In this document: piece after piece, positions 37,469-56,029 of the stretch
Position numbering within the stretch: the stretch's first letter is position 1
Layout: the number at the start of each line of letters is the position of its first letter
Virus record (IMG/VR): IMGVR_UViG_2711768162_000009
Coordinates: 32,001-96,000 of that record
Length of the DNA: 64,000 bases
Direction: 5' to 3' (one strand)
Origin: a virus
Taxonomy: Duplodnaviria; Caudoviricetes
Notes under the pieces: generated by a model
What the model saw: the letters and a program-made list of their open reading frames with translations, nothing else
The model's database searches: none
Told to the model about the DNA's origin: nothing
Program-made: the position numbers and the translations under genes

Positions 37469-38341
37469 ATGCAAAGATATACGGACATTGATGAAAACAC
37501 GGAGGTCGAGGACAGCCGCCAGCTTCTGCTGGACAACGACATGACCTCGATTACCAACAACTCGGGCGTCTCGTTTCCTGCCTACGCAGAGGCCGGGACG
37601 GCGTGCTATCGACTCGACCACGACCGGCTCTACATCAAGCGGGTCAACGGCGAGTGGCGAATGATTGCAGACGCTGCGCAAACAGCTCTGACGCGGGAGG
37701 AAGCTGACCAGCGCTACTCCGACATTAACCACAACCACGATACGGCCTACGCTCCACGCCAGAGCCCGAATCGACCTGGCATCACGAAGCTGTATCGCAG
37801 TGACGCCGACTCCGGCTACAACGTCCAAACGACCTGGACCGGCACCTACTGGAAGCTCTACGGCTACAACGGCGACTCGGCACATGCCGGGTGCTTGGTC
37901 GACCGGGCTAACTCCGCCAGTTCCGCCGACAACGCCTCGAAGCTGAACGGCCTGTCTGCTGGCAACTACCTGCGCAGTAACACCAACTCGACCTTCACTG
38001 CCTCGCTGACGGTCAACGGCAACTTGACGGTCAAGAGCAGCCTGACGGTTTCTCGCGACATCACCTCATCCTCGGATGCCCGCCTTAAGCGGGACATTGC
38101 CACCCTCGAGGACGCCACGCAGAAAGTGAAACAGCTCCGTGGCGTCAGCTACGTGATGAAAAGCTCAGGCGAGAAAGGCATTGGCTTCGTCGCCCAGGAG
38201 CTTCAAAAGGTAGTCCCCGACGTGGTGCGCATCGGTGAAGACAAAAAGCTCTCCGTTGCCTACGGCAACATCACTGCCCTGCTGACCGAGGCGTTGAAAG
38301 ACGTCATTTCGCGTATCGAGAAGCTGGAGGCTGCGGCATGA
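37469..38341 (+). CDS. Tail fibre with C-terminal peptidase S74 intramolecular chaperone
   Basis: SSDARLKRDI, LRGVSY, GFVAQEL, terminal coiled coil. Confidence 0.9.
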   Translation: MQRYTDIDENTEVEDSRQLLLDNDMTSITNNSGVSFPAYAEAGTACYRLDHDRLYIKRVNGEWRMIADAAQTALTREEADQRYSDINHNHDTAYAPRQSPNRPGITKLYRSDADSGYNVQTTWTGTYWKLYGYNGDSAHAGCLVDRANSASSADNASKLNGLSAGNYLRSNTNSTFTASLTVNGNLTVKSSLTVSRDITSSSDARLKRDIATLEDATQKVKQLRGVSYVMKSSGEKGIGFVAQELQKVVPDVVRIGEDKKLSVAYGNITALLTEALKDVISRIEKLEAAA

Positions 38342-38589
38342 GCTACAAGATCGGCGGCACGACCGTCATCGACAACAACGGCGAGATCGACTGGGGCCGC
38401 CTCAAAAACATCAAGGCGGTGATGGGGTCTTCGAGCAACTACACCAAGACCCATAACTGTGGTGACAAGCTGACAAGCATTAGCGGTCCCAAGCTGGAGC
38501 GAACCGGCAACAACCTTCGCATTCGCTACGACAGGTATTACGGCGACTGCAATTGCAACTGTAACTGCAACTGCCTGTGCCGAGACTGA
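38338..38589 (+). CDS. Small fibre-associated protein with C-terminal CNCNCNCNCLCRD; putative radical SAM substrate
   Basis: 83 aa, ATGA-coupled to the S74 fibre gene, directly upstream of the rSAM cluster. Confidence 0.85.
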   Translation: MSYKIGGTTVIDNNGEIDWGRLKNIKAVMGSSSNYTKTHNCGDKLTSISGPKLERTGNNLRIRYDRYYGDCNCNCNCNCLCRD

Positions 38590-38597
38590 GGTGACGC

Positions 38598-39521
38598 ATG
38601 AAGATCGGATTCTACGGTCCCTACCCGACCAATCACTACCTGCTTCACCTCCACATCGAAGGCTCTCGGCTCTACGCCGGCATCCTCTACCCTGCTGACT
38701 TCTTGACCGATGAGCCCGACACGCGGATGGCCTACGCCGACTACCTAACGTGGTTCAAGAATGCGGAAGTGGACTACAGCTACGCCGGCTACCCCAACAA
38801 CTTCACCAATGGCGTCTTCGTTCGTGGTGTCGCCAATCAGCCGGCAGAGCGGTGGTTCGAAATCAAGGGCAAGATCGCCTTCGATATGCAGTATGCCGCT
38901 GGCGAGGATGAGTTCTGCGACTTCTCGATCATCGACCTGAACATCAAGAACGACGGCACCTTCTACGGCATCCAGAACCGCTTCTCGCGGACTCGTGGCG
39001 ACAAGGTGCTGAAGTCGCATCGTGCACGGGCGGCCATCGACGTCAGCACCGTTCTGACGGTCGTCTTCCCCTTCTGTGCGCAGTCGTTCGAGGATGCGGA
39101 GTTGATCATCGTGCCCTACGGCGAGGGCTTTGAGCCCATTGGGGTTGAACCCGACTTCCGAGTCAGTGCCAAGCCGCCAGGCGAACGCCTGATACGCGAT
39201 CTCTACTCGCCAAAGTTCGAAACTCCGGTGGTCCAGGTAAAGCCTGACGACATGGTTCAGATCCCCTTCAGCACCACTTGGAATGGCGGCAGCGAGTATC
39301 CGCACGAGGAAGGCGAGCCGATTGACCGAGCCATCACTTACGAGGTCGAGCCGACCTCCGGCTACGTCGGTATCCGGCGAGTCACCACGGATGATCAGGG
39401 CAACGGCGTGATTCGGTTCAGAGCGCTCGACATGCTGCCCGGCGAGAAGGCCAAGGTGAAATTGAATCTCGGCCATTTCTCCGCGCTGGGCGCTGTCGAG
39501 ATCGAGGTGGTCGATGCTTAA
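38598..39521 (+). CDS. Unknown protein, paralogue A
   Basis: 307 aa; clearly paralogous to 42479-43399; beta-rich C-terminus. Confidence 0.85.
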   Translation: MKIGFYGPYPTNHYLLHLHIEGSRLYAGILYPADFLTDEPDTRMAYADYLTWFKNAEVDYSYAGYPNNFTNGVFVRGVANQPAERWFEIKGKIAFDMQYAAGEDEFCDFSIIDLNIKNDGTFYGIQNRFSRTRGDKVLKSHRARAAIDVSTVLTVVFPFCAQSFEDAELIIVPYGEGFEPIGVEPDFRVSAKPPGERLIRDLYSPKFETPVVQVKPDDMVQIPFSTTWNGGSEYPHEEGEPIDRAITYEVEPTSGYVGIRRVTTDDQGNGVIRFRALDMLPGEKAKVKLNLGHFSALGAVEIEVVDA

Positions 39522-40512
39522 CGTCTTCCTTGGCTACGCCTGCAACTTCAACTGCGGCTATTGCCTTCAGGAGCCAGAACACGAGCGGGGGCCTAATCGG
39601 GCTCCCCGCCTGGATGCATTCTTCGAGAAGGTCATTCCAGAGATCAAGCGCCAGGGCATTCGCGAGATCGCCTACTGGGGCGGCGAGCCGCTGGTCTACT
39701 GGAACGCCATCATGGAAATCCACGAGCGACTGCTCGACGAAGGCATCAGGTTTGACCTGGTGAAGTTCGTCACCAACGGGAGTCTGCTCAAGGAGCATCA
39801 CGTCAAAGTGCTCAATGCCTGGGGCGCCTACGTGGTCGTGTCCATGCACGAAGGCTTCGGTGAACCCAACTGGGACATGGTGGCTCAGCTCCATAAATCG
39901 AGCCTGTCGTTCCTGTTTCGCAAGGATCGCCTGAGCCCAATGGAGTGGCTTGAGCGCGTCGAAGAACTCGAGGCCCACTACCAGCGACCATTCTTCCCCT
40001 ACATGCACTGGATTCGCTCAACGGACGGTGCGGCGGAGAAATGGTGGCTCGGCCACGAAGACCTTGATGAACACGTCGCAGAGCTATGGGAGCTGGCCCG
40101 GATGCGCATTGAGGGGCATCGCCTGGCACATGGTCTATGGGAGGCTCACCTTCAAGACTGGCGCAGCAAGATGCGACCGGGCCGCGAAGCCGTCCCGATG
40201 TGCTTCGGCAAGCATCAGATCGACATTGACCTAGACGGCAATCTCTACGGCTGCCACCACACCGTCAACGACTCGATGAAGGTCGGCACCCTGGCAGAAG
40301 GCGCCAAGGATATTGTGGTGATGAGCCGCATCCGTCGCTTCGTGGACACCAAAGAGTGTATGGCCTGCCCGATCAAGACCTGGTGCCGGGGCAACTGCCA
40401 CCTCTCCAACACCCACGACGTTGACTGCCGGCTGTCCAAAGAGAAGCACCGCATTCTCCAATGGATCGACGCCAACGAGCGCGGCATCGACGCTATTGCC
40501 ATCGACGTTTGA
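39514..40512 (+). CDS. Radical SAM/SPASM protein 1
   Basis: CNFNCGYC, WGGEPL, TNG; SPASM C...GNLYGCH...CMACPIKTWCRGNC. Confidence 0.93.
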   Translation: MLNVFLGYACNFNCGYCLQEPEHERGPNRAPRLDAFFEKVIPEIKRQGIREIAYWGGEPLVYWNAIMEIHERLLDEGIRFDLVKFVTNGSLLKEHHVKVLNAWGAYVVVSMHEGFGEPNWDMVAQLHKSSLSFLFRKDRLSPMEWLERVEELEAHYQRPFFPYMHWIRSTDGAAEKWWLGHEDLDEHVAELWELARMRIEGHRLAHGLWEAHLQDWRSKMRPGREAVPMCFGKHQIDIDLDGNLYGCHHTVNDSMKVGTLAEGAKDIVVMSRIRRFVDTKECMACPIKTWCRGNCHLSNTHDVDCRLSKEKHRILQWIDANERGIDAIAIDV

Positions 40513-40541
40513 CCAACTTAATCAGTAAGGACTGACTGACC

Positions 40542-41831
40542 ATGTTTACGATTACCCTGCGCCGTCAGAATGGCGAGGAATTCCAGCTCCAATATGATCA
40601 CCGTGCCAATCGCCTGCTGACGATGGAGGGCCTAGACGCCCTGCCGTTCTATCACGAGAAGCGGGAGTGGTCAGTCGCCCGGTCCTTTAGTCCCGACAAC
40701 CCCGTTGGTAAGACCGGCAAGGTCAAGAATCTCAAGATTCAGCTCGGCCTGAAGTGCAACTACTCATGCGCCTACTGCAACCAGGCGGTTCATGTTGGCA
40801 GCGAGGTTCACACCAATCTCGATGACGTGCATGAGTTCATGGCTGGGCTCGATAGCTGGATGGAGACAGCGCCCCAGCGTATCGAGCTGTGGGGTGGCGA
40901 GCCGCTGGTCTACTGGAAGAAGCTCAAGGTGCTGATTCCGGCGTTGCACGAGCGCTTCCCGCAGGCGCAGTTCGTGATGATCACCAACGGCTCTCTACTG
41001 GACGACGAGAAGTTCGCCTTCATCGAGCGATACGATATGGCGATCGCCATGTCCCATGACGGCCCCGGCCAGCATTTGCGAGGCCCTGACCCGTTCGAAC
41101 AGCCCGAGACCGTCCGGATCGTTCGGCGCTTCATCGAAGAGCGCCCCCACCGCTTCTCGATAAACAGCGTAATCACCAAAGCCAACACCGACATCAATGC
41201 CATCGTCGACTGGTTCCGTGAGCGCGTTCACCCCGACGCTCCCGTTAACTTCGAAGGGGTCGTCAATCACTACGACGAAGCCGGTGTAGGGTTCACGGAG
41301 CGCTTCACTGAGCGCGATTACGAGAAACTGGTGTCATCACTCAAGGAGAATCTGAAAGACGCTGAGAAGCGCTCCCAGGGGCTAGAAGCGCGTGTTTACG
41401 ACTTCATCGAATCCATCATGGAAGCTCGCCCACACACGTCGCTGGGTCAGAAGTGCGGAATGGACAGCGAAGACCGGCTGGCGGTCGATCTGAAGGGCAA
41501 CGTCATGACCTGCCAGAACACGGGAGCAACCTCGGAGCACGGCATTGGCTCCGTCTTCGACATGGATAACGTGAAGCTGACCACCTCCTGGCACTGGATG
41601 GAGCGGCCCGACTGTGAGGGCTGTCCCTACCTTCAGCTTTGTGCCGGCGGCTGCATGTTCCTCGAGGACAAGAACTGGGTCGATACCTGCAACAACGAGT
41701 ATCACTACGCCAAGGGTATCTTTGAGGGTGCCTTGCGAATGCTGACCGGCGCTGACGTCGTTGCCTTCGAGGGCCATCACACTCGGCCCAAGGCCCCTTC
41801 CGACAACCTGATTCCGGTGATGGCGGTATGA
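40542..41831 (+). CDS. Radical SAM/SPASM protein 2 with N-terminal extension
   Basis: CNYSCAYC, WGGEPL, ITNG, SHDG; SPASM CG...GNVMTC...CEGCPYLQLCAGGC. Confidence 0.95.
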   Translation: MFTITLRRQNGEEFQLQYDHRANRLLTMEGLDALPFYHEKREWSVARSFSPDNPVGKTGKVKNLKIQLGLKCNYSCAYCNQAVHVGSEVHTNLDDVHEFMAGLDSWMETAPQRIELWGGEPLVYWKKLKVLIPALHERFPQAQFVMITNGSLLDDEKFAFIERYDMAIAMSHDGPGQHLRGPDPFEQPETVRIVRRFIEERPHRFSINSVITKANTDINAIVDWFRERVHPDAPVNFEGVVNHYDEAGVGFTERFTERDYEKLVSSLKENLKDAEKRSQGLEARVYDFIESIMEARPHTSLGQKCGMDSEDRLAVDLKGNVMTCQNTGATSEHGIGSVFDMDNVKLTTSWHWMERPDCEGCPYLQLCAGGCMFLEDKNWVDTCNNEYHYAKGIFEGALRMLTGADVVAFEGHHTRPKAPSDNLIPVMAV

Positions 41832-42421
41832 GCGAATTTACAGGCTTCAATGGGCTTATCGGCATCTACGACATAGACGATTTCACCGCGACGGAATGGG
41901 AGACGGTGGTTGGCCTATGCAACAAGATGGCCCAAAGCGAGGGAGTGGCGCAGCAGCTCACCGCCGGCAACACTCGAGCCGACGTCATTGGCGACACGCC
42001 GGAGCTGCAACGCATCTCAAGCGCTCTCGAAGAGGCCATCGGTCATTACCTGGTGGCGAACTTTCCCGTCGTGCTGCATCCCGACACCGAACTCGATCTC
42101 GCTCGGGTCGGCTCCTGGTTCAGCGTCTACAGGAAGGGTGAAAGTCAGGCGACGCACACCCATGACGCCGACCTGTCTGCGCTGATCTACTTCGACACGG
42201 TAGAGGAAGACCACGGCGGCCTGACAATCTTCACTAACCCGGTAAACCCGCACCTGCCGGTAGGCTCTGGGTTGATGCAAAAAGGACTGCGGGTCCATCT
42301 CCCTGTCGAGGCGGTGAAGGGCCGAATCGTAGTGTTCCCGAGCTATCTCGAGCACGGCTGCTCAACCTATGAAGGACCAGGGCTGAGACGAGTCCTGGCT
42401 GCCGACTTCACGGCTCAATAG
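41828..42421 (+). CDS. Putative 2OG-Fe(II) oxygenase (TIGR02466-like)
   Basis: SWFSVY...HTH...LSALIY...FPSYLEH...R pattern. Confidence 0.82.
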   Translation: MSEFTGFNGLIGIYDIDDFTATEWETVVGLCNKMAQSEGVAQQLTAGNTRADVIGDTPELQRISSALEEAIGHYLVANFPVVLHPDTELDLARVGSWFSVYRKGESQATHTHDADLSALIYFDTVEEDHGGLTIFTNPVNPHLPVGSGLMQKGLRVHLPVEAVKGRIVVFPSYLEHGCSTYEGPGLRRVLAADFTAQ

Positions 42422-42478
42422 GTAAGTCACTGGTTACTTATCTGATATACTGGCCCAACCGCAACAGGAGGCTCTGAC

Positions 42479-43399
42479 ATGAAAGTTGGCTTTTACGGCC
42501 CCTACCCCATACAGGCGCAACAAGTGCATCTCTACATCGAGGAATCCCGCATCTACGTGGGCATCTTGGCGCCGTTCACCTCGAAGCACTACAAGCCCGA
42601 GCACTTCATGACCTACCCGGAATATCTGGAGTGGTTCAAGACTGTCGAGGCTGAGCACGAATACGCCGGATACCCGAACAACAACTACAACCACTACATC
42701 GTGACAGGCGTTCCCGGCCACGACCCGGAAGCGCGCTTTCTCATCCTTGGAAAGCTGGGCTTCGATCTGCGCTACGCCGCTGGCGAGGATGAAGTGACCG
42801 ACTTCACCATCCTCGACGTCAATATCTACAACGACCGAACGCTGGCCGGTATCCAGAACCGCTTTGCGAACACCCGCAATGAGAAGGCCATCAAGTCCCA
42901 TCGCGTCCGTGCGCTGGATAACGTCAGCACCGTTGCGACCATCGTTTTCCCCTACAAGTCAGACACCTTCGAGGATGCCGAGCTGGTAGTGGTGCCCTAC
43001 AACGAGACCGGGCGACCTCTGGGAATGGAGCCGGACGTGTGGTTCGACGCCAAGCCGCCAGGCGAACGGCTGATCGCGGACATGTATTCGCCCAAGTTCG
43101 TTCAGCCGGTGGTCGAGGCCAAAGCCGGTGAGCTGGTCAGGATTCCCTTCAGCACCACCTGGAATGGCGGTGACGAATACGATCACGCCGAAGGTGAGCC
43201 TTTGTCTCGCGCTGTGACCTACAAGGTGGAGGCCACTGCGGGCTATGTGCCAAAGCGTCGGATCGTCACTGACGAGAAAGGTAGCGGCGAGATCCTGTTC
43301 CGGGCCACCGACCTAGAGCCAGGCGACGAAGCCAAGGTGAAGCTGAACATCGGCCACTTCACCGGCATCAGCCACGTCACCGTGAAGATCACTGAGTAA
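42479..43399 (+). CDS. Unknown protein, paralogue B
   Basis: 306 aa; shares MKxGFYGPYP, YAGYPNN, YAAGEDE, GIQNRF, KPPGERLI and PFSTTWNGG with paralogue A. Confidence 0.85.
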   Translation: MKVGFYGPYPIQAQQVHLYIEESRIYVGILAPFTSKHYKPEHFMTYPEYLEWFKTVEAEHEYAGYPNNNYNHYIVTGVPGHDPEARFLILGKLGFDLRYAAGEDEVTDFTILDVNIYNDRTLAGIQNRFANTRNEKAIKSHRVRALDNVSTVATIVFPYKSDTFEDAELVVVPYNETGRPLGMEPDVWFDAKPPGERLIADMYSPKFVQPVVEAKAGELVRIPFSTTWNGGDEYDHAEGEPLSRAVTYKVEATAGYVPKRRIVTDEKGSGEILFRATDLEPGDEAKVKLNIGHFTGISHVTVKITE

Positions 43400-43442
43400 C
43401 CCCAGGGCACCCTAGCGGTGCCCTCTTCTCTTCGAGACTCCC

Positions 43443-44177
43443 ATGAACATCAAGTCCCACACCCAGATTCAGACCATCTTCCCCTCCTTCGTGATGCACA
43501 AGCGCTGGGAGATGCCGCCGGGGTTTAACGAGCGACTGCACGAACTCGCGTGCGAAGACGCCATCAGGAACCGGATCACGAAAGCAGACAACCCCACCAA
43601 TATCGGTGACACCTCGAATCACCTCGGGCACCTTCGTCACAACTTCCTGGTCGAGTGCCAGGAGCCTGAAGTGAAGACTCTGACCCAGATGGCTGACCTG
43701 GCCGTGAGGGAGTATCTGGCCTCGGTTTACGGCTATCAGCACGAAGGCGAGGTTCGCATGATGAGCGACACCTTTTGGCAGCGCCGAAGTCATGGCGAAA
43801 ACGTCGGCATCAACAGTCACACCCACATCAAGGCTGATCTGGTGGTGACCTACTACCCTCGCGTAGACGTGGAGCCGGGGGAAACTAGCTCGCTACGCAA
43901 GGGAGCATGTCGCTTCTACGACCCGGCCAACGTCGGCAAGCGCTTCTGGCCCTGCAACAACGACGCCTTCTTCGTCGGAGGCTGGTATCAGTTGGAGCCG
44001 CAGGAGGGCTCAATGACAGTGTTCGAGGGCTACGTCCCTCACGACAGCACGTTCTTCTCCGGTGAAGAGCGAATGTGCATCCCGATCCTCGTGGACGTCG
44101 ATACACCCAAGAAGCACTGCAAAGCTGCGGTGAGCGACATTCTCGGCTACAAGCCCTGGGAGAAAGGCCATGAGTGA
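43443..44177 (+). CDS. Putative 2OG-Fe(II) oxygenase (TIGR02466-like)
   Basis: IFPS, HTH...LVVTYY...FYDP...FEGYVPH...ERMCI. Confidence 0.8.
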   Translation: MNIKSHTQIQTIFPSFVMHKRWEMPPGFNERLHELACEDAIRNRITKADNPTNIGDTSNHLGHLRHNFLVECQEPEVKTLTQMADLAVREYLASVYGYQHEGEVRMMSDTFWQRRSHGENVGINSHTHIKADLVVTYYPRVDVEPGETSSLRKGACRFYDPANVGKRFWPCNNDAFFVGGWYQLEPQEGSMTVFEGYVPHDSTFFSGEERMCIPILVDVDTPKKHCKAAVSDILGYKPWEKGHE

Positions 44178-44787
44178 GCTGCCAGGTTTCAGTGATCTAG
44201 TGATGGCCGTTCAGATTCGCGACTTCACAGAAGCCGAATGGAGTGCGTTAGAGCACATCGCAGAGAGCCACACCAGGCAGGTCTCGCGACGCAACGACCC
44301 AAAGAGCCCTGGTGCGGAGCCGCTTACCACCGCGGATTACGACGACCTTATCGGTAGTATTCCTGCACTAGAGCGCATCGGAAAGGCACTTGATGAGGTG
44401 GCGGAGCTGTATCTCTCCACTCAGCACCCTGGGGCGCCGGTCCTTGGCTATGGGCTGAAGCGAACCGGCTCTTGGATGAGCGTCTACAAGACCGGCCAGG
44501 CACGCGAAACCCATACTCACGACTCGGACGTCAGCGTGGTGTTGTTTGTCGATGACGTGCCCGAAGAGGACGGCGGAGTGCTGGGCTTTCTCAACCCCAC
44601 GAATCGCCATGTGATCGGCGGCACAGGGCTACTTCAGACGACGTTCCGAAAGCAATTCACCCTTACGCCGCAGAGGTGCGTCGCCGTTGCCTTCCCAGGC
44701 TACCTCGAGCACTTCGCCACCGAATACCAGGGACTAGACACCCGCCGGATCATCGCTGCTGATTTTGCTGCATTTGATAGTAAGTAA
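44170..44787 (+). CDS. Putative 2OG-Fe(II) oxygenase, paralogue of 41828-42421
   Basis: GSWMSVY...THTHD...FPGYLEH...RRIIAADF. Confidence 0.82.
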   Translation: MSELPGFSDLVMAVQIRDFTEAEWSALEHIAESHTRQVSRRNDPKSPGAEPLTTADYDDLIGSIPALERIGKALDEVAELYLSTQHPGAPVLGYGLKRTGSWMSVYKTGQARETHTHDSDVSVVLFVDDVPEEDGGVLGFLNPTNRHVIGGTGLLQTTFRKQFTLTPQRCVAVAFPGYLEHFATEYQGLDTRRIIAADFAAFDSK

Positions 44788-44845
44788 TCGCTGACTTACT
44801 ATGGTATATTGCCCCTTGGACTTGACTTTCTACAGGGGCAATTAG

Positions 44846-45193
44846 GTGAACGAGCACATCTCCGTTCCGCAGCCCGATCACTCACCCGCCGCCGGCGCTC
44901 TCGAGCAAACGTCGGTCAATTGGGCAGACAAAAGCCTCTGGGTAGTGGTTGGGCTGATCCTCCTGGGCCACATGGCCCGCAATCTCGTCTCCGACGAGCC
45001 GTTCAACCTCAAGAAGTTCATTGGCGAGATGCTGCTGGCCGGCATCGGCGCTGTCGTCATCTACCTCTTCGGCATTCTTCAGGGCTTGCCGGAGATTCAA
45101 ATCATCCTGATCGGAAGTCTGACCAGTCTTGGCGGCATTCGCGCGCTCGAATGGGCCGCAAAGATTTACCGCCTTTCCAAGAAACTGCACTAA
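44846..45193 (+). CDS. Holin
   Basis: Three hydrophobic segments and a basic C-terminus, directly before the endolysin gene. Confidence 0.75.
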   Translation: MNEHISVPQPDHSPAAGALEQTSVNWADKSLWVVVGLILLGHMARNLVSDEPFNLKKFIGEMLLAGIGAVVIYLFGILQGLPEIQIILIGSLTSLGGIRALEWAAKIYRLSKKLH

Positions 45194-45203
45194 GGAGGCT
45201 GCA

Positions 45204-49771: not shown

Positions 49772-49772
49772 T

Positions 49773-52520
49773 ATGGCCCTGGTTGCACACTACCGCTTTG
49801 ACGGCGACGCCAAGGATGCACTCAAGGGTAACGACCTGTCGTTCGGCTTGAGCGGAAGTTGGGTTCGAGGGAAGTTCGGGCAGGCGTTCAGCATTGCCGG
49901 AACAGGAGGCGGCGCCCAGGTGGCGCCCTCTTCCTTTGGCCTGAACCCGAACACCAACCGCTGGACGGTCTGTGGCTGGGTCATTCCCAACCGGACAAGC
50001 TGGGAAACCGATAACGGCAGCGGGCTCAACCGCCACAACGTCTTCGAGATGGGCGACTACTACATCGAGGGTGAGACCAGCATCACCTTCGGACGCCACA
50101 GCACCGGCAACACCAGCCGCGCCCTGTTCTTCTCGATCTACCAGAACCAGACGGGCTGTGAGACGCCCCCGGCGCACAACTTCACCGTGGACGAGCTGGA
50201 CGACTGGATTTTCTTCGCCGTCACCTGCAACGGGAGCGAGCTGGCCTTCCATAGCTTTGCAGAGGCAACTGGAAACTGGCAGCGAACTGGGGCGGCCGTT
50301 AGCTGGGACGTTACTCAGGCTCCCATCCGAGACAACCTGCACATCGGCGGATACGGCTGGGTTAGCGGAAGCTGGCGGGGTGTCCTCGAGGACTTCCGGG
50401 TCTACGATCATGCCCTGTCGCTTCGTGAAATCTACGACCTGAGCCTTGGGGTCATTGCCGACTATCGCTGTCCTGCCTATCAGGAAGCGCTTGTGGCCGG
50501 TTTTCTGCCCGACGCCAGCGGCCAGGATAACCATGCCGCAATCGAGCCTTCTGAAGCCCCTACGTGGACGTCAGCGGGGTATCGCTTCGATGGGGCTCAG
50601 TGCATCAATGCCGGGTCTGTCATCACGATGGAAGGCAGGAGCCGCTGCACCATCGAATGCGAGTTCGAGCTGGACGACACTCAGGATCAACAGGCCCTGG
50701 TCGCGAAGTGGAATACCTACGGTGTGGGTCGTCAGTTCCTGCTGGACGTCTATCAGGGAAAGGTCCGCGCCACGTTCGGCAAGGAAGTGGTTGATGATCA
50801 GGTTCTCATCACGCACCCGATCCAGGCCGGCACCCGCTATCACGTCCTCGCGGTCAAAACTCCCACCGAGCAGAAGCTGTTCGTGAACGGCGCACTAGTG
50901 GCCTCGGCCGGCAACCCCGCTACGTTCCTCGGCAACAGCGAGCCTCTGGTGCTGGGTGGCAAGTCCGACGACGGAGTTGTTTCGGCCAAGATGCAGGGGC
51001 TGCTGGTTCGCGCTCGCATCTTGAGCGTCGCTGTGTCCGACGAGATGGCACAAGTCCTCTACCGGAACCGCGCCTCTCTCGATGCCATCGGCAACTTCAC
51101 GACTCGGGAGGTGACTGAGCTTGGTCAATCTACCAAGCCGATCATCGACTACAGCGTCTGGAAGGCGGGTCAAACCGCGAGTGTTGGGGATTTCTCGCGC
51201 AACGGCGCCTCCAACAAGAACTCACGGGTGAATGCCATTGGCCCGCACGGCAAGGAGATAGTGGTCTGGCAGTGCGACAACACTGACGCCGAGTCCGCAT
51301 CGGACGGCGGCTGGAACTACACGCCGTTTCCCATCGACAACACCAAGCGGTATCGCTTCTCGGTCTGGGTTCGCAGAACATCGCCCGGCAATGGATCGGC
51401 CTACCTGGGCACACGAGGCTACGGTGCAGCAGATGGTGTCGAATTGATGGGCGGAGGCACCAATACCAACCCCTACTTTTGGTCAGGCGGCATTGACCAT
51501 ACCGACTGGTTCCTGATCGTGGGCCATGTCCACCCTGCCGGCTACTCCGGCGGCGTTCATCCAGACACCGCACGCTACCTGCCGAGTGGTCGCGTGGATG
51601 ACGCCACGGACTTCATTTGGCGGCCGGAGACCGAAACCGCCACACACCGGGCATACCTCTACTACTCGACTGACCTGAGCACCCGGCAACAGTTCGCCTA
51701 CCCTCGCGTCGATGTGTGCGATGGAACCGAGCCGACCGTTCAGCAGCTCTTGGATGGGTTTGACGAGCGACTGATAGAGAGTGACTTCAAAGGTCAGGTC
51801 TCGTTGGTTCGCCAAGCGACTGTCAGCGAGGTCGGTGTAGGCCGAGGTCTTGTGGCCTGGTATCCCCTTTGCGGCGACACAATGAACTACGCCTCGTCTG
51901 ATCACGGCACTGCCGTAGGTGCCCTTCCGTCAGACTGGGGCTATGAGTTCTCTGGAGTGGATCAACACATCGCCTGCGGCAAGCCGGCCGAGCTTTCGGA
52001 GATCACCGACGAGCTGAGCATCAGCTACTGGTGTCGCTTCGAGGACGCTGGCGACCAGGACCATCCTGTCGTGGCCTGTAACGAGTCCGACACCTGGCTT
52101 CCCGGTAATGGATTTGTCATCGGCCACGGCTGGGGTGACACCTTCTACTTCGGAATCGGCGGTAACGTGAGGCAAAACCTCCCCACCCCGCTGAGTCAGG
52201 ACGGTCAAATGCACCACGTCTGCCTGACCTACAGCAGTGCCAAGGGCGCACGCCTCTACATTGATGGCGTGCAGGCTTTCGAAGATGCGAGCTGGACTGG
52301 CCCCGTTGGGCAAAACAGCGAAGACCTCTTCATCGGCAAGGCGAACTACCGTGGCGGTAGCTTCAAGGGGCGGCTCGCTGACGTTCGCATCTACAGCAAA
52401 CGCCTCGAGGTCGACGAGGTAGGCGCTCTCGCCAAACTGAGCCCTGCCGGAAAGACCAAGGTGCAGCTATCTGCCGACGGACTGCTCGTCCACGGTCAAC
52501 TGAAAGAAACCACCATCTAA
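49773..52520 (+). CDS. Multi-LamG (concanavalin-like) domain virion protein
   Basis: Three LamG-like units (LVAHYRFDG...DFRVYDHALS; KLFVNG; LYIDG...DVRIYSK). Confidence 0.8.
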   Translation: MALVAHYRFDGDAKDALKGNDLSFGLSGSWVRGKFGQAFSIAGTGGGAQVAPSSFGLNPNTNRWTVCGWVIPNRTSWETDNGSGLNRHNVFEMGDYYIEGETSITFGRHSTGNTSRALFFSIYQNQTGCETPPAHNFTVDELDDWIFFAVTCNGSELAFHSFAEATGNWQRTGAAVSWDVTQAPIRDNLHIGGYGWVSGSWRGVLEDFRVYDHALSLREIYDLSLGVIADYRCPAYQEALVAGFLPDASGQDNHAAIEPSEAPTWTSAGYRFDGAQCINAGSVITMEGRSRCTIECEFELDDTQDQQALVAKWNTYGVGRQFLLDVYQGKVRATFGKEVVDDQVLITHPIQAGTRYHVLAVKTPTEQKLFVNGALVASAGNPATFLGNSEPLVLGGKSDDGVVSAKMQGLLVRARILSVAVSDEMAQVLYRNRASLDAIGNFTTREVTELGQSTKPIIDYSVWKAGQTASVGDFSRNGASNKNSRVNAIGPHGKEIVVWQCDNTDAESASDGGWNYTPFPIDNTKRYRFSVWVRRTSPGNGSAYLGTRGYGAADGVELMGGGTNTNPYFWSGGIDHTDWFLIVGHVHPAGYSGGVHPDTARYLPSGRVDDATDFIWRPETETATHRAYLYYSTDLSTRQQFAYPRVDVCDGTEPTVQQLLDGFDERLIESDFKGQVSLVRQATVSEVGVGRGLVAWYPLCGDTMNYASSDHGTAVGALPSDWGYEFSGVDQHIACGKPAELSEITDELSISYWCRFEDAGDQDHPVVACNESDTWLPGNGFVIGHGWGDTFYFGIGGNVRQNLPTPLSQDGQMHHVCLTYSSAKGARLYIDGVQAFEDASWTGPVGQNSEDLFIGKANYRGGSFKGRLADVRIYSKRLEVDEVGALAKLSPAGKTKVQLSADGLLVHGQLKETTI

Positions 52521-52603
52521 GCGCCCCCCAGGGTGATACCGCCTGGCATCACTCTGGGGTATTATGTAAGTCATCGCTTACTGATCTTCTAAGAGGAAGG
52601 ACA

Positions 52604-53569
52604 ATGGCTGATCTAGCCTCAACCAGAGTGTTCGGCACGCTGGTTGTTAAGCACAGAGCATGGGTTGATGGAGGCGAGGTTTGGCACTCCAAGAATGCCC
52701 CATACCTTCAAACCAACGGTTGGGGTGGTGTTCGACATACCACCAGCGACGGCTATATCGACCTTGGCCCGGCCAATGCCGATCACGCTCACATCTACAC
52801 AGACAGGCCGGATTTCTACTTCAACAGAGACTTGATGGTCAGCGGGAACAAAGTCTGGCACGCCGGAAACACAGGCGAATACACGATCAACGGCCAAGAC
52901 TTCAGGGGTCGTGGCAAACGCTGCATCGTGGCGAGCACATCTGCCATGTTTCTTAACTACGCAGGAGACTTCACCAACGTCACGATTCAAAGCGATGCAG
53001 TGATCAGCGGCATCCTGACAGCGAATGATCACCTTCGCTCGGGTGCGATGAATTTCAGCACCTACAAAGAGTGGGATACAGGCGAGTTCAACGCTCTCGG
53101 CGGAGGCGCAGCTATTGTCAACGACAGCACTGGTCACAAGGGGCTCATGATCCTCGGCAACCGCTCAGCCGGTGGCAACCGCATCGTTAAGGTATGGGAT
53201 GAGCTTCAGTGCATGGGTGACGTTAAGGCATACGCCTCGGACGCCAGGCTCAAGACCAACGTGCAGACCATCAGCGGCGCCCTCGACAAGCTGAGCCAAA
53301 TCCGGGGCGTGACCTATGACTGGATCGAGGACTGCGAAGACCTCGGTTTCTGCCCGGCCAACCCACATGAGCATGGCGTTATTGCTCAAGAGATAGAGTC
53401 GGTAATCCCTGATGCCGTGTCCTCTGCCCCGTTCAACGAGGACTATCTGACTGTCCGCTACGACCGGATCGTGCCACTGCTCATTGAGGCACTGAAGGAA
53501 GAGGCGGCATTGAGAGAGCAGCTTCAGCGGCGGGTCCAGACGCTCGAGAGCGGTCAGGAGGTGGCCTGA
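52604..53569 (+). CDS. Tail fibre with C-terminal peptidase S74 chaperone
   Basis: ASDARLKTN, IRGVTYDW, GVIAQEI, YDRIVPLLIEA. Confidence 0.9.
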   Translation: MADLASTRVFGTLVVKHRAWVDGGEVWHSKNAPYLQTNGWGGVRHTTSDGYIDLGPANADHAHIYTDRPDFYFNRDLMVSGNKVWHAGNTGEYTINGQDFRGRGKRCIVASTSAMFLNYAGDFTNVTIQSDAVISGILTANDHLRSGAMNFSTYKEWDTGEFNALGGGAAIVNDSTGHKGLMILGNRSAGGNRIVKVWDELQCMGDVKAYASDARLKTNVQTISGALDKLSQIRGVTYDWIEDCEDLGFCPANPHEHGVIAQEIESVIPDAVSSAPFNEDYLTVRYDRIVPLLIEALKEEAALREQLQRRVQTLESGQEVA

Positions 53570-54111
53570 TGGCAACGAGGCTCACCACCTGGACATACAC
53601 CACCTCATGGTCGGCAACCACGAGCTGGACGACTAGTTACTCTGCCACCACCAGTCGCTCGACAACCACGAGCTGGACAACAAGCTGGACGACCAATTGG
53701 ACGACAAACTGGTCGCAGAACACGAACAGGTCTACGTCCACACGCATCGGCGGCCCACTGCCGGCCACAGGTGAGATAAGTCTGAAGGCTGCGGGTGACG
53801 CTCTCGGCATGACAGGGGTGATCTCCCTTGGCGCAATGCGTGGAAAGGGAACGCCTACACTGCCGGCGTCCGGCGAGATCAGGATGGATCAGCTACACGG
53901 TCTCGAGAACTACCGGAATACGACCACCACCTGGTCGACTAGCTACTCGAGATCAACCTCGCGATCAACGTCCAAGACCACTTCCAAATCGACGACGACA
54001 AGGTGGTCGACCTCCAAGTCGAAGTCCACGTCGAGGTCTACAACGAAAAGCAAAAGCACCTCCACCAGCGGGTGGACTCACTACAACTGCAACTGTCTCT
54101 GCCGAGACTGA
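53569..54111 (+). CDS. Thr/Ser/Trp-repeat fibre-tip-like protein ending in NCNCLCRD
   Basis: TTSW repeats flanking a LPATGEISL...LPASGEIRM domain; coupled to the S74 fibre gene. Confidence 0.85.
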   Translation: MATRLTTWTYTTSWSATTSWTTSYSATTSRSTTTSWTTSWTTNWTTNWSQNTNRSTSTRIGGPLPATGEISLKAAGDALGMTGVISLGAMRGKGTPTLPASGEIRMDQLHGLENYRNTTTTWSTSYSRSTSRSTSKTTSKSTTTRWSTSKSKSTSRSTTKSKSTSTSGWTHYNCNCLCRD

Positions 54112-54146
54112 GTAAGGGCGGCCTGGCCGCCCTGTAGGAGCACAAC

Positions 54147-54320
54147 ATGAACGACCAGAAGACTGCTGAGCGCCTTGGGCAATTGAGCGAAGTGCTGCTC
54201 GAGCACCTGACCAGCTTCGATCAGAAGATGAACGAGGCAATTGAGGCGCTGGACGAGCGCATCGAAGAGCTAGTCGAGCAACGCATCAACGAACGGCTCA
54301 AGGAGCTTGGGTGTGAGTGA
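54147..54320 (+). CDS. Small coiled-coil protein (57 aa, absent from the ORF track)
   Basis: AGGAG RBS; MNDQKTAERLGQLSEVLLEHL...KELGCE; overlaps the next start codon. Confidence 0.7.
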   Translation: MNDQKTAERLGQLSEVLLEHLTSFDQKMNEAIEALDERIEELVEQRINERLKELGCE

Positions 54321-55140
54321 CTTCGATCAAGACCGCATTGACGACGCCTACACCATCCTGTCCAAGATCGGGAACATCTCACGGTCCCCGGCGTTGAGCA
54401 GCCTGGAGGGCATGGCGCCCCATGTCTACGACGCCTTCGATGGCGAGGTGCTGTTCGACATTTACTACGACGGCGGCCGGGACTTCAAAAGCATCACTTT
54501 CACTGAAATCTTCAGTCACGGCTTACTGATCAGCCCTTGTAACGATGCCATGCGCTACGACATGGCTCTGCACGCCCTGAACGACGAAGACCCATCAGTG
54601 CCGGCAGAACGAATCCTCGGATGGGGGCGGATCGACAAATACCAGCTCAGAAAGCGCTTGAGTCGTAAGCCAGTGCCGGCAGCGGTCTTTCTTCCTGGCA
54701 CCAACCTACTCAGCGACAAAGTGAACTGGGCTCAGGTGCAAGCCGCGGTCGATGCAGGCGCCTTGGTCAAGATGCACCCCATCACCAGCGCAGGCTGGGA
54801 GAGACGCTTGAAGCAGGAGTTTGGATCTCGGCTGGTGAGTAAGGGGGAAAGCGGATTTGACCTCCTGGCCGCCGCTGAGCGCGTATACACCACCTCCAAC
54901 AGTGAGATGGGCCTGCTCGGCATTCTTATGGACAAGCCCGTCGATCTGGTCGAAGGGGGCGTCACCAGCAAGCGCCCGATCTACCGTCAGCTCTATGAAG
55001 CTGTGCTGCCTCAAGACAATCCAAAGGCCGCGCTGGAGAAACTGCTTGGTAGCCGTCACGCAGGATTCTACTGGCCCTGGCACGACTCCAGCCGCCCTCT
55101 CGAAATCGTCAATGCAATGAGAACCTTCGCCCATGCTTAG
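54313..55140 (+). CDS. Putative glycosyltransferase-like protein (KpsC/KpsS-like C-terminal motifs)
   Basis: LVKMHP and LLAAAERVYTTSNSEMGLLGILMDKPV. Confidence 0.5.
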   Translation: MSDFDQDRIDDAYTILSKIGNISRSPALSSLEGMAPHVYDAFDGEVLFDIYYDGGRDFKSITFTEIFSHGLLISPCNDAMRYDMALHALNDEDPSVPAERILGWGRIDKYQLRKRLSRKPVPAAVFLPGTNLLSDKVNWAQVQAAVDAGALVKMHPITSAGWERRLKQEFGSRLVSKGESGFDLLAAAERVYTTSNSEMGLLGILMDKPVDLVEGGVTSKRPIYRQLYEAVLPQDNPKAALEKLLGSRHAGFYWPWHDSSRPLEIVNAMRTFAHA

Positions 55141-56029
55141 CGCCTACTGCTGCCCCACCAACGACAACCTTCCGCAACTGATCGTCGCGGTATCCAGCTT
55201 CATGCGCCAAAACCCTGGCGTCCCGGTGGTGGCCTACTTCAACAAAGGAACCGACGTCGAAGCCCTCGAGGCTATGGGTGTTGAGGCTGTCTGCGTCATC
55301 GGCTCACATCTCATGATCTCGGGTCTCGATGACCTGATGCTACGCCGCCCCGACATCACCCGAGCGGTCCACATTGGGGCGACCACCCTCACGCAAGACA
55401 GCTTGTCGGATATGGCAGGAGTTCCAATGGACGGTCTGCCGATTGGCGCGGCAAGCGTCTACATGTTCCCTCACGACGAGGTGGGGCCTGATTGCTACCG
55501 CCAAGCCGACCCGGAGCTGTTCAGCTCTCGGCAGCAGGTCAATGAGCGGTATTTCGACACCGATTTCCTGCTGTTCAACCTCGAACAGTGTCGCCGACAG
55601 CAGGATCGCAGCATCGCCTTGAGGTATTGCATGAGCCGGGCGAGGACTGAACAGGAATTTTTGAACCAGGTGTTTGGCGAGTCCGACTTCCTGAACATGC
55701 CGGGCAACTTGAATGTCGCACCAGAGCACACCATTCACCTCGATCTGAACCCCTTCAAGTTGGCAAGGCATCGGCTCGAGCTGGAAAACGCGAGAGTGAT
55801 TCGCTTCCCTGGTGATGTGGTGCCCTGGAGGCCCATCAAGAATGTCGATAGGGCGTCCATTCAGTTGCCCATGAAGCAATATTTGGCTGCCGCTGAGTGT
55901 GTGGTTTCGCTCCTGCCGCCGGAATTTGTGAAGACCATCGAGGCCAACTCCAAGTTGCTCAACGACTACATCGGGCCGGTGGCAGACGTTCTTGCTGAAG
56001 CGCACTCTATCGCCATGAGAAACGCCTAA
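55133..56029 (+). CDS. Glycosyltransferase family 8-like protein (degenerate motifs)
   Basis: YFDTDFLLFNLE (cf. YFNSGVLLINL), EQEFLN (cf. DQDxLN), VIRFPGDVVPW (cf. IHFxGxxKPW); DxD replaced by GAT. Confidence 0.65.
   Translation: MLSAYCCPTNDNLPQLIVAVSSFMRQNPGVPVVAYFNKGTDVEALEAMGVEAVCVIGSHLMISGLDDLMLRRPDITRAVHIGATTLTQDSLSDMAGVPMDGLPIGAASVYMFPHDEVGPDCYRQADPELFSSRQQVNERYFDTDFLLFNLEQCRRQQDRSIALRYCMSRARTEQEFLNQVFGESDFLNMPGNLNVAPEHTIHLDLNPFKLARHRLELENARVIRFPGDVVPWRPIKNVDRASIQLPMKQYLAAAECVVSLLPPEFVKTIEANSKLLNDYIGPVADVLAEAHSIAMRNA

What the first reader, a model, noticed from the sequence alone, without database searches (positions are those of the whole stretch)
37469..56029. Phage-encoded RiPP-like system that appears to modify tail-fibre tip proteins carrying a shared NCNCLCRD tag
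Seen: two S74-chaperone tail fibre genes about 15 kb apart (37469, 52604) are each translationally coupled to a small gene. The two small proteins are otherwise unrelated but end identically in NCNCLCRD (38338: DCNCNCNCNCLCRD; 53569: HYNCNCLCRD). Their DNA differs at synonymous sites (TGC CTG vs TGT CTC), so the peptide is what is conserved. The first is followed by two rSAM/SPASM enzymes, three 2OG-Fe(II) oxygenase-like genes and a duplicated unknown; the second by two glycosyltransferase-like genes. Known: SPASM rSAM enzymes mature Cys-rich peptides (sactipeptide/ranthipeptide thioethers), and small genes after S74 fibres can encode tip adhesins (T2 gp38 after gp37). Inference: the motif is a portable core or recognition tag, and the phage chemically tailors its receptor-binding tips (cross-links, Asn hydroxylation, a metal-binding tip) rather than making a free peptide. 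I know of no characterised system like this, but cannot check the literature.
Basis: partly seen in the sequence, partly recalled or inferred. Interest (0 to 1): 0.93.

Follow-up and report, generated by a model that had tools for sequence, protein, structure and literature searches.

The report
Radical-SAM-matured cysteine-ladder phage fibre tails
A prophage gives two unrelated tail-fibre-linked proteins the same cysteine-rich end and encodes two iron-sulfur "radical SAM" enzymes that almost always sit beside such ends in other phages, so it probably cross-links parts of its host-binding fibres chemically.

Summary
Two small genes, each overlapping the stop codon of an S74-chaperone fibre gene, end in NCNCLCRD. 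The first is followed by two rSAM/SPASM genes, three 2OG-oxygenase genes and a duplicated unknown.

The pairing recurs widely. Among 70 viral loci with a C-terminal (Asn-Cys)4 run, 50 carry a homologue of the 429-aa rSAM downstream on the same strand, against 1 of 49 control loci. Among 60 viral loci chosen by rSAM homology, 57 have a Cys ladder.

New here: the tag looks bipartite. The second, 332-aa rSAM occurs only in the order ladder protein, 307-aa protein, rSAM332, rSAM429. In those loci 18 of 21 distinct tails end Cys-x-Asp/Glu, against 4 of 107 elsewhere. Both window tails end Cys-Arg-Asp.

Best reading: both proteins are substrates of both enzymes, which install thioether-type cross-links on fibre proteins and do not make a free peptide. 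The chemistry is untested. It remains unshown that the window's two small proteins are virion or tip proteins. Only one downstream gene looks like a glycosyltransferase.

This scan has already noted the ladder-rSAM module on other genomes. My six literature searches found no paper describing it.

The parts
37004..37465 (+). 153-aa conserved fibre-module protein that precedes the fibre gene
   Evidence: phmmer hits at E 1e-17 to 3e-24 just upstream of ladder-ended fibres in 23 ORFs of the loci, and to JWF gp027. No Pfam or PHROG family.
37469..38341 (+). fib1: tail fibre with a C-terminal S74 intramolecular chaperone
   Evidence: PF13884 at E 4.6e-16, plus tail-fibre PHROGs. Its N-terminal 95 aa are 42% identical (E 8e-21) to the N-terminus of a ladder-ended fibre in the two-rSAM locus L288.
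38338..38589 (+). nc83: 83-aa protein ending DCNCNCNCNCLCRD; proposed substrate 1
   Evidence: Homologues P0001 and P0002 keep the tail exactly. It shares its N-terminal motif and its NC tail with small ladder proteins of L038, L112 and L108.
38563..38586 (+). Tag copy 1 (NCNCLCRD)
38598..39521 (+). unk307: conserved accessory protein with an N-terminal beta domain and a C-terminal Ig/Big-like domain
   Evidence: AF2 model with pLDDT 95. C-terminal domain matches intimin/invasin at Z 9.1-9.8. N-terminal domain best matches SPP1 gp22 at Z 5.4. 62 representative clusters in 1.84e9 proteins. Present in 38 of 51 rSAM-positive loci and 23 of 23 two-rSAM loci.
39514..40512 (+). rSAM332: short radical SAM/SPASM enzyme with no N-terminal extension
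   Evidence: PF04055 and TIGR04085. C10, C14 and C17 plus 7 SPASM Cys are conserved in alignment A6. Closest solved structure is CteB 5wgg, E 1.1e-19. Always found between the unk307-like gene and rSAM429.
40542..41831 (+). rSAM429: radical SAM/SPASM enzyme with a conserved ~55-aa N-terminal extension; the universal partner of Cys-ladder tails
   Evidence: C72, C76 and C79 are invariant, as are SPASM C305, C324, C358, C361, C367 and C371; C383 is nearly invariant.
41828..42421 (+). og197: 2OG-FeII_Oxy_5 oxygenase
   Evidence: PF13759 at 35.1 bits (cut-off 27); phrog_81. H110 and H176 are invariant in 38 family members.
42479..43399 (+). unk306: paralogue of unk307
   Evidence: 56% identity. 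Hits the same loci as unk307.
43443..44177 (+). og244: 2OG-FeII_Oxy_5-like oxygenase
   Evidence: PF13759 at 25.5 bits, just under the cut-off of 27; phrog_81. Orthologues at E 3e-106 and 5e-105 in L112 and L038, next to their ladder gene.
44170..44787 (+). og205: 2OG-FeII_Oxy_5 oxygenase
   Evidence: PF13759 at 32.9 bits; phrog_81.
52604..53569 (+). fib2: second S74-chaperone tail fibre
   Evidence: PF13884 at E 1.2e-17, plus tail-fibre PHROGs.
53569..54111 (+). nc180: Thr/Ser/Trp-rich 180-aa protein ending HYNCNCLCRD; proposed substrate 2, about 12 kb from the enzymes
   Evidence: Its relatives end in other Cys ladders or in a ladder followed by a Hint domain.
54085..54108 (+). Tag copy 2 (NCNCLCRD)
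54307..55140 (+). 277-aa phage protein of unknown function (phrog_26179); only a weak Capsule_synth lead
   Evidence: It may belong to a separate tailoring unit for nc180; this is inference.
55133..56029 (+). 298-aa GT8-like putative glycosyltransferase
   Evidence: No Pfam hit. ESM Atlas feature score 0.96 and TM 0.67-0.74 to Glyco_transf_8 clusters. Its link to nc180 is inference.

Best explanation
This provirus carries an expanded copy of a widespread phage module.

In that module the mature C-terminus of a tail-fibre-module protein is a ladder of alternating Cys residues. The in-between residues are mostly Asn, then Ala and Asp. A dedicated radical SAM/SPASM enzyme of the rSAM429 family is encoded just downstream.

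I propose that nc83 and nc180 are both substrates, recognised through their shared tail. The tail has two parts:
- The (Asn-Cys)n ladder is the target of rSAM429.
- The terminal Cys-Arg-Asp is the target of the second enzyme, rSAM332.

The most likely chemistry is ranthipeptide-type thioether cross-linking. That means Cys sulfur joined to a side-chain carbon of Asn (as NxxcB does) or of Asp (as PapB does). It would give a reduction-proof, protease-proof staple within a chain or between the chains of the fibre.

The three 2OG oxygenases and the two unk307 paralogues are common but dispensable accessories. The oxygenases would hydroxylate. The unk307 proteins have an Ig-like domain, resemble virion proteins, and may be a partner or scaffold.

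Shown: the gene content, the motifs, the co-occurrence statistics, and the link between tail ending and the second rSAM. Inferred: substrate status, the cross-link chemistry, the division of labour between the enzymes, and virion location.
For: 1. Forward test. A scan of viral contigs for (NC)4 DNA gave 119 loci. In 70 of them the run lies within 25 aa of the stop of an ORF of at least 60 aa. Of these 70, 50 carry an rSAM429 homologue (E<1e-20). All 50 are downstream on the same strand, 3 to 7034 bp away. Among the other 49 loci, 1 carries one.

2. Reverse test. Of 60 viral loci picked by rSAM429 homology with at least 3 kb upstream, 47 have an upstream same-strand ORF ending in xCxCxC. Another 10 have an internal ladder and 3 have none. 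Opposite-strand ORFs gave 1 terminal and 4 internal ladders. In bacterial genomes, 50 of 65 such loci have a terminal ladder.

3. Where the ladder is internal, a self-cleaving domain often follows it. Examples are Hint in JWF gp028, L173 and L030, and S74 in L118, L191 and L132. The ladder would then become the mature C-terminus.

4. All 23 close rSAM332 loci have the order ladder protein, unk307-like, rSAM332, rSAM429. Tails end C-x-[D/E] plus 0-2 residues in 18 of 21 distinct tails of two-rSAM loci, against 4 of 107 in one-rSAM loci. Both window tails end CRD.

5. Both enzymes keep the CX3CX2C motif and a full 7-Cys SPASM motif. Their nearest named families and solved structures are thioether maturases (PapB, CcpM, SCIFF/CteB, QhpD) and anSME.

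6. Published chemistry fits:
- NxxcB links Cys to the beta-carbon of Asn in NxxC motifs and tolerates Ala, Gln and Asp as acceptors (PMC9389541, passages). N-C-N-C is itself an NxxC motif. Ladder x positions are N 68%, A 12.6% and D 11.3%.
- PapB links Cys-Xn-Asp/Glu with n = 0-6, and also links Cys to a C-terminal residue (PMC9413430 and PMC12373016, abstracts).
- CrpC installs thioethers on a whole protein (PMC13692751, abstract).

7. The tail is under selection. P0002 is 69% identical overall but identical across the 14-residue tail.
Against:
- 14 of 65 prophage loci with rSAM429 homologues show no ladder within 7 kb, mainly Variovorax, Ramlibacter and Polaromonas; one of the 14, L239, does carry a Cys-rich tail that my pattern missed. 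3 of 60 viral loci also show none.
- Every NCBIfam match lies far below its family cut-off, for example PapB at 70.3 bits against 340. No known chemistry can therefore be assigned by homology.
- anSME is about as close as the thioether enzymes.
- The link between tail ending and rSAM332 may partly reflect shared descent of the two-rSAM loci. I did not correct for phylogeny.
- nc180 has no enzyme gene next to it, and I could not see the context of its relatives.
- The tag DNA, 22 of 24 bases identical with CGA shared, is also compatible with a recent copy between the two genes.
Confidence: 0.6

Rival explanations
1. The Cys ladder is a structural metal-binding or Fe-S-binding motif of a trimeric fibre, comparable to the His-x-His metal sites of T4 fibre tips (recalled). 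It is not covalently modified. The rSAM enzymes act on something else, or only help load metal.
For: Alternate residues of a beta strand face the same side, so an xCxCxC run would line one face with thiols (inference). The ladder sits at the mature C-terminus of fibres. Some rSAM homologues occur with no ladder nearby.
Against: It does not explain why one specific SPASM rSAM family lies downstream of the ladder in 50 of 70 loci against 1 of 49 controls. It does not explain why a second rSAM family tracks the Cys-x-Asp ending. SPASM enzymes of the nearest families act on Cys-containing peptides and proteins.
Confidence: 0.15
2. The rSAM enzymes modify the ladder without cross-linking it. Examples would be oxidation of Cys to formylglycine, as anSME does, or epimerisation.
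For: anSME (4k36) aligns over nearly the whole rSAM429 profile at E 2e-15 and the rSAM332 profile at E 2e-14. TIGR03942 is among the NCBIfam hits.
Against: Scores are far below the anSME cut-off (39.8 and 50.2 bits against 349). The tails lack the sulfatase C/S-x-P/A-x-R motif (motif recalled; tails). The acceptor-like residues N, A and D in the ladder and the terminal Asp fit thioether systems better.
Confidence: 0.1
3. nc83 is a classical RiPP precursor. Its tail would be cut off and released as a free Cys-rich peptide such as a bacteriocin or signal, and the fibre context would be incidental.
For: It has the small size, Cys-rich C-terminal 'core' and adjacent SPASM rSAM genes typical of RiPP clusters.
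Against: Between 37004 and 56029 no gene has a peptidase or transporter family match, apart from the S74 chaperone domains of the two fibres and the lysis genes, a holin-like gene and an M15 endolysin. In relatives the same ladder ends fibres of 113 to 730 aa that share fib1's N-terminal domain. The ladder can precede S74 or Hint autoprocessing domains. nc180 carries the tag on a 180-aa Ser/Thr-rich protein.
Confidence: 0.04
4. The identity of the two tags is a recent recombination or gene-conversion patch with no joint function. Only nc83 would be a substrate.
For: 22 of 24 bases are identical and both copies use the minor CGA codon, with a chance of about 0.02.
Against: nc180's relatives also end in Cys ladders or in a ladder followed by Hint, so a ladder tail is native to that family. 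Codon bias alone predicts 4.46 of 8 identical codons. DNA similarity ends exactly at the tag. The CRD ending matches the presence of rSAM332.
Confidence: 0.08

Closest known systems
NxxcB/NxxcA (streptococcal radical-SAM RiPP)
   Same: A SPASM-type rSAM acts on repeated Asn/Cys motifs. It links Cys sulfur to the beta-carbon of Asn in NxxC and tolerates Ala, Gln and Asp as acceptors (PMC9389541, passages). N-C-N-C is an NxxC motif. Ladder x positions are N, A and D in 92% of cases.
   Different: NxxcA is a short leader-core peptide of a quorum-regulated operon. Here the carriers are phage fibre-module proteins of 83 to 730 aa, and the Cys alternate with period 2. I did not test enzyme homology to NxxcB.
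PapB/PapA (freyrasin ranthipeptide)
   Same: PapB is the best or second-best NCBIfam match of both enzymes. It makes Cys-Xn-Asp/Glu thioethers with n = 0-6 and can use a C-terminal residue (abstracts). The window tails end Cys-Arg-Asp at the C-terminus.
   Different: Scores of 70.3 and 55 bits are far below the 340-bit cut-off. The substrate is a free peptide. No RRE domain was identified here.
CrpC/CrpA of Methanococcus voltae and QhpD/QhpC
   Same: SPASM rSAM enzymes that install thioethers on whole proteins and not on released peptides (PMC13692751, abstract). QhpD appears as TIGR03906 among the hits; its function is recalled.
   Different: These are cellular proteins of archaea and bacteria, not virion proteins. 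They have no alternating Cys ladder. Homology to them is only at the superfamily level.
CteB (SCIFF maturase, PDB 5wgg) and anSME (PDB 4k36)
   Same: These are the closest solved structures by profile: 5wgg at E 1.1e-19 for rSAM332, and 4k36 at E 2e-15 for rSAM429. They share the same three-cluster SPASM architecture.
   Different: rSAM332 has no N-terminal domain at all. rSAM429 has its own conserved ~55-aa extension. The substrates are unrelated.
His-x-His metal ladders of T4-type fibre tips (recalled, not checked here)
   Same: A period-2 ligand ladder at the distal end of a trimeric fibre.
   Different: Cys replaces His, and dedicated modifying enzymes are encoded alongside.

Membership tests
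Radical SAM superfamily with SPASM domain (PF04055, TIGR04085) | CX3CX2C cluster motif, plus the 7-Cys SPASM motif (CX9-15GX4C, then CX2CX5CX3C, then C) | tested here: met
   PF04055 and TIGR04085 score above their cut-offs for both enzymes. In rSAM429, C72, C76, C79, C305, C324, C358, C361, C367 and C371 are invariant and C383 nearly so. In rSAM332, C10, C14, C17, C230, C247, C282, C285, C291, C295 and C305 are conserved.
PapB-family ranthipeptide maturase (NF047865) | Score above the curated cut-off of 340 bits | tested here: not met
   70.3 bits for rSAM429 and 55 bits for rSAM332.
PapB-family ranthipeptide maturase (NF047865) | Substrate carries Cys-Xn-Asp/Glu motifs | tested here: met
   Both tails end Cys-Arg-Asp. 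18 of 21 distinct tails in two-rSAM loci end C-x-D/E.
NxxcB/NxxcA | Substrate carries repeated Asn-x-x-Cys motifs | tested here: met
   NCNC contains N-x-x-C. nc83 has four overlapping copies and nc180 has one.
NxxcB/NxxcA | Enzyme is orthologous to NxxcB | not tested
   No NxxcB model appeared among the 25 best NCBIfam rows shown for each enzyme. No direct comparison was made.
Anaerobic sulfatase maturase (TIGR03942) | Score above the cut-off of 349.45 bits, and a sulfatase-type substrate motif | tested here: not met
   50.2 and 39.8 bits. The tails lack C/S-x-P/A-x-R (motif recalled; tails).
Classical RiPP cluster | A leader peptidase and/or exporter, and release of a small core peptide | tested here: not met
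   No gene between 37004 and 56029 has a peptidase or transporter family match, apart from the fibres' own S74 domains and the holin-like and M15 lysis genes. Release itself cannot be tested with these tools.
S74 intramolecular-chaperone tail fibres (PF13884) | C-terminal Peptidase_S74 domain | tested here: met
   fib1 at 59.3 bits and fib2 at 64.4 bits, cut-off 22. An SDARLK motif is visible in both.
2OG-FeII_Oxy_5 (PF13759) | Score above the 27-bit cut-off and conserved His ligands | tested here: met
   og197 at 35.1 bits and og205 at 32.9 bits. og244 at 25.5 bits is just below the cut-off. Two His are invariant in 38 members.
Glycosyltransferase family 8 (PF01501), for 55133..56029 | Pfam match and GT-A fold | tested here: inconclusive
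   No Pfam hit at E<=0.01. Atlas feature score 0.96 with 176-181 shared features, and TM 0.67-0.74 to GT8 clusters.
T2 gp38-type tip adhesin | Sequence relation to known adhesin or fibre-assembly families | tested here: inconclusive
   nc83 has no PHROG or Pfam family. nc180 hits only phrog_30374, of unknown function.

The most novel reading that the evidence does not exclude
Phages use a two-enzyme radical-SAM 'stapling code' on their host-recognition fibres. One SPASM enzyme zips the (Asn-Cys)n ladder with Cys-to-Asn thioethers, possibly between the three chains of the fibre. A second enzyme closes the very end through a Cys-x-Asp link. Any protein given the short portable tail, such as nc83 and nc180 here, then becomes a covalently locked virion part that resists reduction and proteases. 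This would be the first enzymatic radical cross-linking of a virus structural protein.
Probability: 0.35. Interest if true: 0.9.

Novelty: new variant of a known kind. Interest (0 to 1): 0.8.

Why it matters
If the reading holds, RiPP-type radical chemistry extends from secreted peptides to virion proteins, at the part of the phage that meets the host.

It would explain the unexplained 'radical SAM cassettes' reported in host-recognition clusters of marine phages (PMC7029224, passages).

It would also offer a short transferable tag with matching enzymes for making thioether-stapled proteins.

The rule that the tail ending predicts a second enzyme gives a direct experiment to assign substrates to each enzyme.

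Tried and rejected
- An exact NCNCLCRD-stop DNA pattern in viral contigs gave 0 hits. The full tag is specific to this lineage.
- tblastn of nc83 against named phage records gave nothing below E = 3.
Alignment A5 was too poorly conserved to search with.
I therefore have no test of enzyme-substrate binding, unk307-substrate binding or trimer formation.
- unk307 has no sequence match to a solved structure (best E 0.46). Foldseek on the whole model gave only Ig-domain rows at TM of about 0.2. Foldseek on the N-domain gave nothing at E<=0.001. VIA-align gave at best SPP1 gp22 at Z 5.4 (rmsd 4.1, 107 aligned), followed by other phage receptor-binding proteins at Z 2.6-3.4. All of this is below the level that shows kinship.
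- I rejected the idea that unk307 is an enzyme or an RRE for lack of any support. A virion or scaffold role is only a lead.
- og197 has no solved relative by sequence. The 277-aa and 298-aa proteins have none either.
- nc83 compared with the C-terminus of a ladder-ended fibre (L079) shows 14 of 37 identities, which BLASTP does not find significant. I dropped the idea that nc83 is a split-off fibre end.
- The promoter and terminator scan gave fewer sites than shuffled sequence. It was not used.
- Literature searches:
  - 'radical SAM + tail fiber + phage + thioether'.
  - 'SPASM + tail fiber + phage'.
  - 'radical SAM + tail fiber': 32 papers hold both terms; I read the 30 listed titles and abstract starts, and passages of 3 of them.
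  - 'NCNCNC' matched anywhere in a word.
  - None describes this system.

Full report
**What is there**

The window is bases 32001-96000 of a 105,962-bp IMG/VR provirus record. It has a siphovirus-like late region: a tape measure gene at 27766..31065 and a J-like central fibre gene at 32519..36970.

After a conserved 153-aa gene comes fib1 (37469..38341), which carries a Peptidase_S74 chaperone domain. Then, in order:
- nc83 (38338..38589), overlapping fib1 by ATGA.
- unk307.
- rSAM332.
- rSAM429.
- og197.
- unk306.
- og244.
- og205.
- A holin-like gene and an M15 endolysin gene.

Three more fibre-type genes follow. Then comes fib2 (52604..53569, S74 domain) and nc180 (53569..54111), overlapping by TGATG. 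After that lie a 57-aa ORF, a 277-aa ORF and a 298-aa ORF.

nc83 ends DCNCNCNCNCLCRD and nc180 ends HYNCNCLCRD. These are the only two sites for the back-translated tag in the whole record, and the reversed control pattern has none.

**Is the identity meaningful?**

The two proteins are otherwise unrelated, and DNA similarity is confined to the tag. The DNA argument alone is weak. The copies share 22 of 24 bases and 6 of 8 codons, where codon bias predicts 4.46. Both use CGA, which makes up 14% of Arg codons.

Comparison with relatives is stronger:
- A homologue of nc83 that is 69% identical overall keeps the 14-residue tail exactly.
- Relatives of nc180 end in other Cys ladders (…NCACRTCNACGNT, …ACACCNACGNT), or in a ladder followed directly by a Hint domain. 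A Cys-ladder tail is therefore native to both families. In this phage both tails have the same sequence.

**The module is widespread and tightly linked to one rSAM family**

- In 70 loci the run lies within 25 aa of the stop of an ORF of at least 60 aa. Of these, 50 have a homologue of rSAM429 at E<1e-20. All 50 are downstream on the same strand, 3 to 7034 bp away.
- Of the 20 without one, 17 have less than 3 kb of downstream DNA.
- Among the other 49 loci, where the motif is not at an ORF end, 1 has the enzyme.

The reverse test agrees. Of the 80 best viral loci found by rSAM429 homology, 60 have at least 3 kb upstream. Of these 60:
- 47 have an upstream same-strand ORF of at least 75 aa ending in an xCxCxC ladder.
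- 10 have an internal ladder, several followed by Hint, S74 or another C-terminal domain.
- 3 have none.
- Opposite-strand ORFs serve as a control and give 1 terminal and 4 internal ladders.

In representative bacterial genomes the family has 226 relatives. The best are in Rhodobacterales, followed by Bradyrhizobium, Variovorax, Ramlibacter and Limnohabitans. Of 65 loci with at least 3 kb upstream, 50 have a terminal ladder, 1 an internal ladder and 14 none. Inspection shows that one of the 14, L239, has a Cys-rich tail my pattern missed. The others show nothing within 7 kb. This is a real exception. The window itself, however, shows that a tagged gene can lie 12 kb from the enzymes.

**The ladder is the end of a fibre**

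In Achromobacter phage JWF the annotated tail fibre gp028 reads …NCNCDCNCNCSC and then continues straight into a Hint domain. One gene further on is the rSAM. In other loci an S74-type chaperone sequence follows the ladder (L118, L191, L132).

In two-rSAM relatives the ladder ends proteins of 113 to 730 aa. Several of these share fib1's N-terminal domain: L288 is 42% identical over 96 aligned positions, E 8e-21.

Some phages instead encode one to three small ladder proteins of 75-115 aa after an S74 fibre, as in L093, L081 and L055. These have a shared N-terminal motif like that of nc83.

None of this shows that nc83 or nc180 sits at a tip. I found no support for the gp38 analogy.

**Accessory genes**

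Iterated profiles were run on the 51 rSAM-positive loci of the first set. They find an unk307-like gene in 38, a 2OG-FeII_Oxy_5-like gene in 27, and both in 17. The usual order is ladder protein(s), unk307-like, 2OG, rSAM. Pfam detected PF13759 in three of the four ~215-aa ORFs tested from other loci, in L116 and L081 at or above the 27-bit cut-off and in L093 below it (19.3 bits).

unk307 belongs to a small family, with 62 representative clusters in 1.84 billion proteins. Its AF2 model is confident at pLDDT 95.
- The C-terminal 110 residues form an Ig/Big-like domain, with intimin and invasin matches at Z 9.1-9.8.
- The N-terminal domain has no clear relative. The best match is SPP1 gp22 at Z 5.4, followed by phage receptor-binding proteins at Z 2.6-3.4.
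- It looks more like a virion or scaffold protein than an enzyme, but that is only a lead.

**New point: a bipartite tail and a second enzyme**

rSAM332 belongs to its own family, with 78 clusters at E<=1e-10. In all 23 close viral relatives the order is ladder protein, unk307-like, rSAM332, rSAM429. That count is 22 of 23 for the ladder protein, because one locus is cut upstream. A 2OG gene is present in 5 of them.

- Two-rSAM loci have 21 distinct terminal tails. Of these, 18 end Cys-x-Asp/Glu followed by 0-2 residues (CRD, CGDA, CGDG, CND, CSD).
- One-rSAM loci have 107 distinct tails, of which 4 end that way.

Both window tails end CRD. I did not correct for shared descent. However, the carrier proteins differ widely in length and the endings differ in sequence. 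More distant two-rSAM loci carry period-3 Cys tails instead (HCTYCTHC…).

**Likely mechanism**

Both enzymes keep the radical SAM triad and the full seven-Cys SPASM motif. Their nearest named families are PapB, CcpM, nif11, QhpD, SCIFF and anSME. All matches lie far below the family cut-offs. The nearest solved structures are 8vpo, anSME and CteB.

Published chemistry offers two fitting precedents:
- NxxcB joins Cys to the beta-carbon of Asn in NxxC motifs and accepts Ala, Gln and Asp in place of Asn (PMC9389541, passages). NCNC is an NxxC motif. The residues between ladder cysteines are N 68%, A 12.6% and D 11.3%.
- PapB joins Cys-Xn-Asp/Glu with n = 0-6 and can use the C-terminal residue (PMC9413430 and PMC12373016, abstracts).

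CrpC shows that such enzymes can act on whole proteins (PMC13692751, abstract).

I therefore propose that rSAM429 cross-links the ladder and rSAM332 closes the terminal Cys-x-Asp. The oxygenases would add hydroxyl groups. This is inference. Formylglycine formation and simple metal binding remain open.

**The second locus**

The 298-aa protein is GT8-like in the ESM Atlas only. The 277-aa protein is unexplained. nc180 has Thr/Ser-rich arms, so O-glycosylation by these genes is plausible, but I did not test it.

**Prior knowledge**

My searches found no paper that links radical SAM enzymes to phage fibre proteins.
- A pelagimyophage study noted radical-SAM cassettes in the host-recognition cluster without interpreting them (PMC7029224).
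- A cyanophage study read such a gene as 'antibiotic synthesis' (PMC12801897).

Earlier agents of this scan reported the ladder-rSAM module in at least eight other genomes. I repeated the core tests independently. I add the reciprocal counts, the two-rSAM architecture and the tail-ending rule.

**Verdict**

The system is a new variant of protein- and peptide-maturing SPASM systems, in a new biological setting.

Noticed in passing
window 36976, 40522, 42423, 44781, 52567, 54512, 56066 and 21 further sites: An 18-bp palindrome, TMAGTMA-N4-TKACTKA, occurs 28 times in the window with at most 1 mismatch. Shuffled sequence gives a mean of 0.06. Most sites lie at gene junctions. Within the module they separate rSAM332 from rSAM429, og197 from unk306, and og205 from the lysis genes. 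The lead came from earlier notes.
   Followed up: partly
L281, L282, L283, L293, L296 against the other two-rSAM loci: Among the 22 close two-rSAM loci with a visible tail, the 5 whose tail ends CRD are exactly the 5 that also carry a 2OG oxygenase gene. The 17 ending CGDA, CGDG, CND, CSD and the like have none. The window also has CRD together with three oxygenases. The sample is small and the loci are related.
   Followed up: no
L304-L322, L325: Distant two-rSAM phage loci carry two or three tandem proteins with period-3 Cys repeats (HCTYCTHCGHCTHCS) in place of the period-2 ladder.
   Followed up: no
L165, L166, L170, L188, L190, L195: A variant in which the ladder protein lies downstream of the rSAM. 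The ladder (…NCNCACNC) is followed by a conserved ~170-aa domain beginning SKIICxKL. This may be another self-processing or anchoring domain.
   Followed up: no
L132 492..1230: A (Cys-Lys)n ladder of more than 12 repeats, followed directly by an S74-type sequence (WSDEKLKTDIEG), upstream of an rSAM429 homologue.
   Followed up: no
L215, L225, L227, L229-L234, L238, L246, L277: rSAM429 homologues in prophage-like regions of Variovorax, Ramlibacter, Polaromonas and others, with no Cys ladder within 7 kb. Either the substrate is distant or it is of a different kind.
   Followed up: partly
window 53569..56029: nc180 has Thr/Ser/Trp-rich arms around a repeated LPxSGxI motif. It is followed by a GT8-like gene. 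It is a candidate glycosylated virion protein.
   Followed up: partly
window 40542..40710: The rSAM429 family has a conserved ~55-aa N-terminal extension (M-x-x-F … Y-D-N-x-x-S-x-L) that rSAM332 lacks. It may be a substrate-docking element.
   Followed up: no
window 38455..38460 (nc83 residues 40-41): An internal Asn-Cys pair is invariant in the 7 aligned nc83-type proteins. It could be a cross-link partner for the tail.
   Followed up: no
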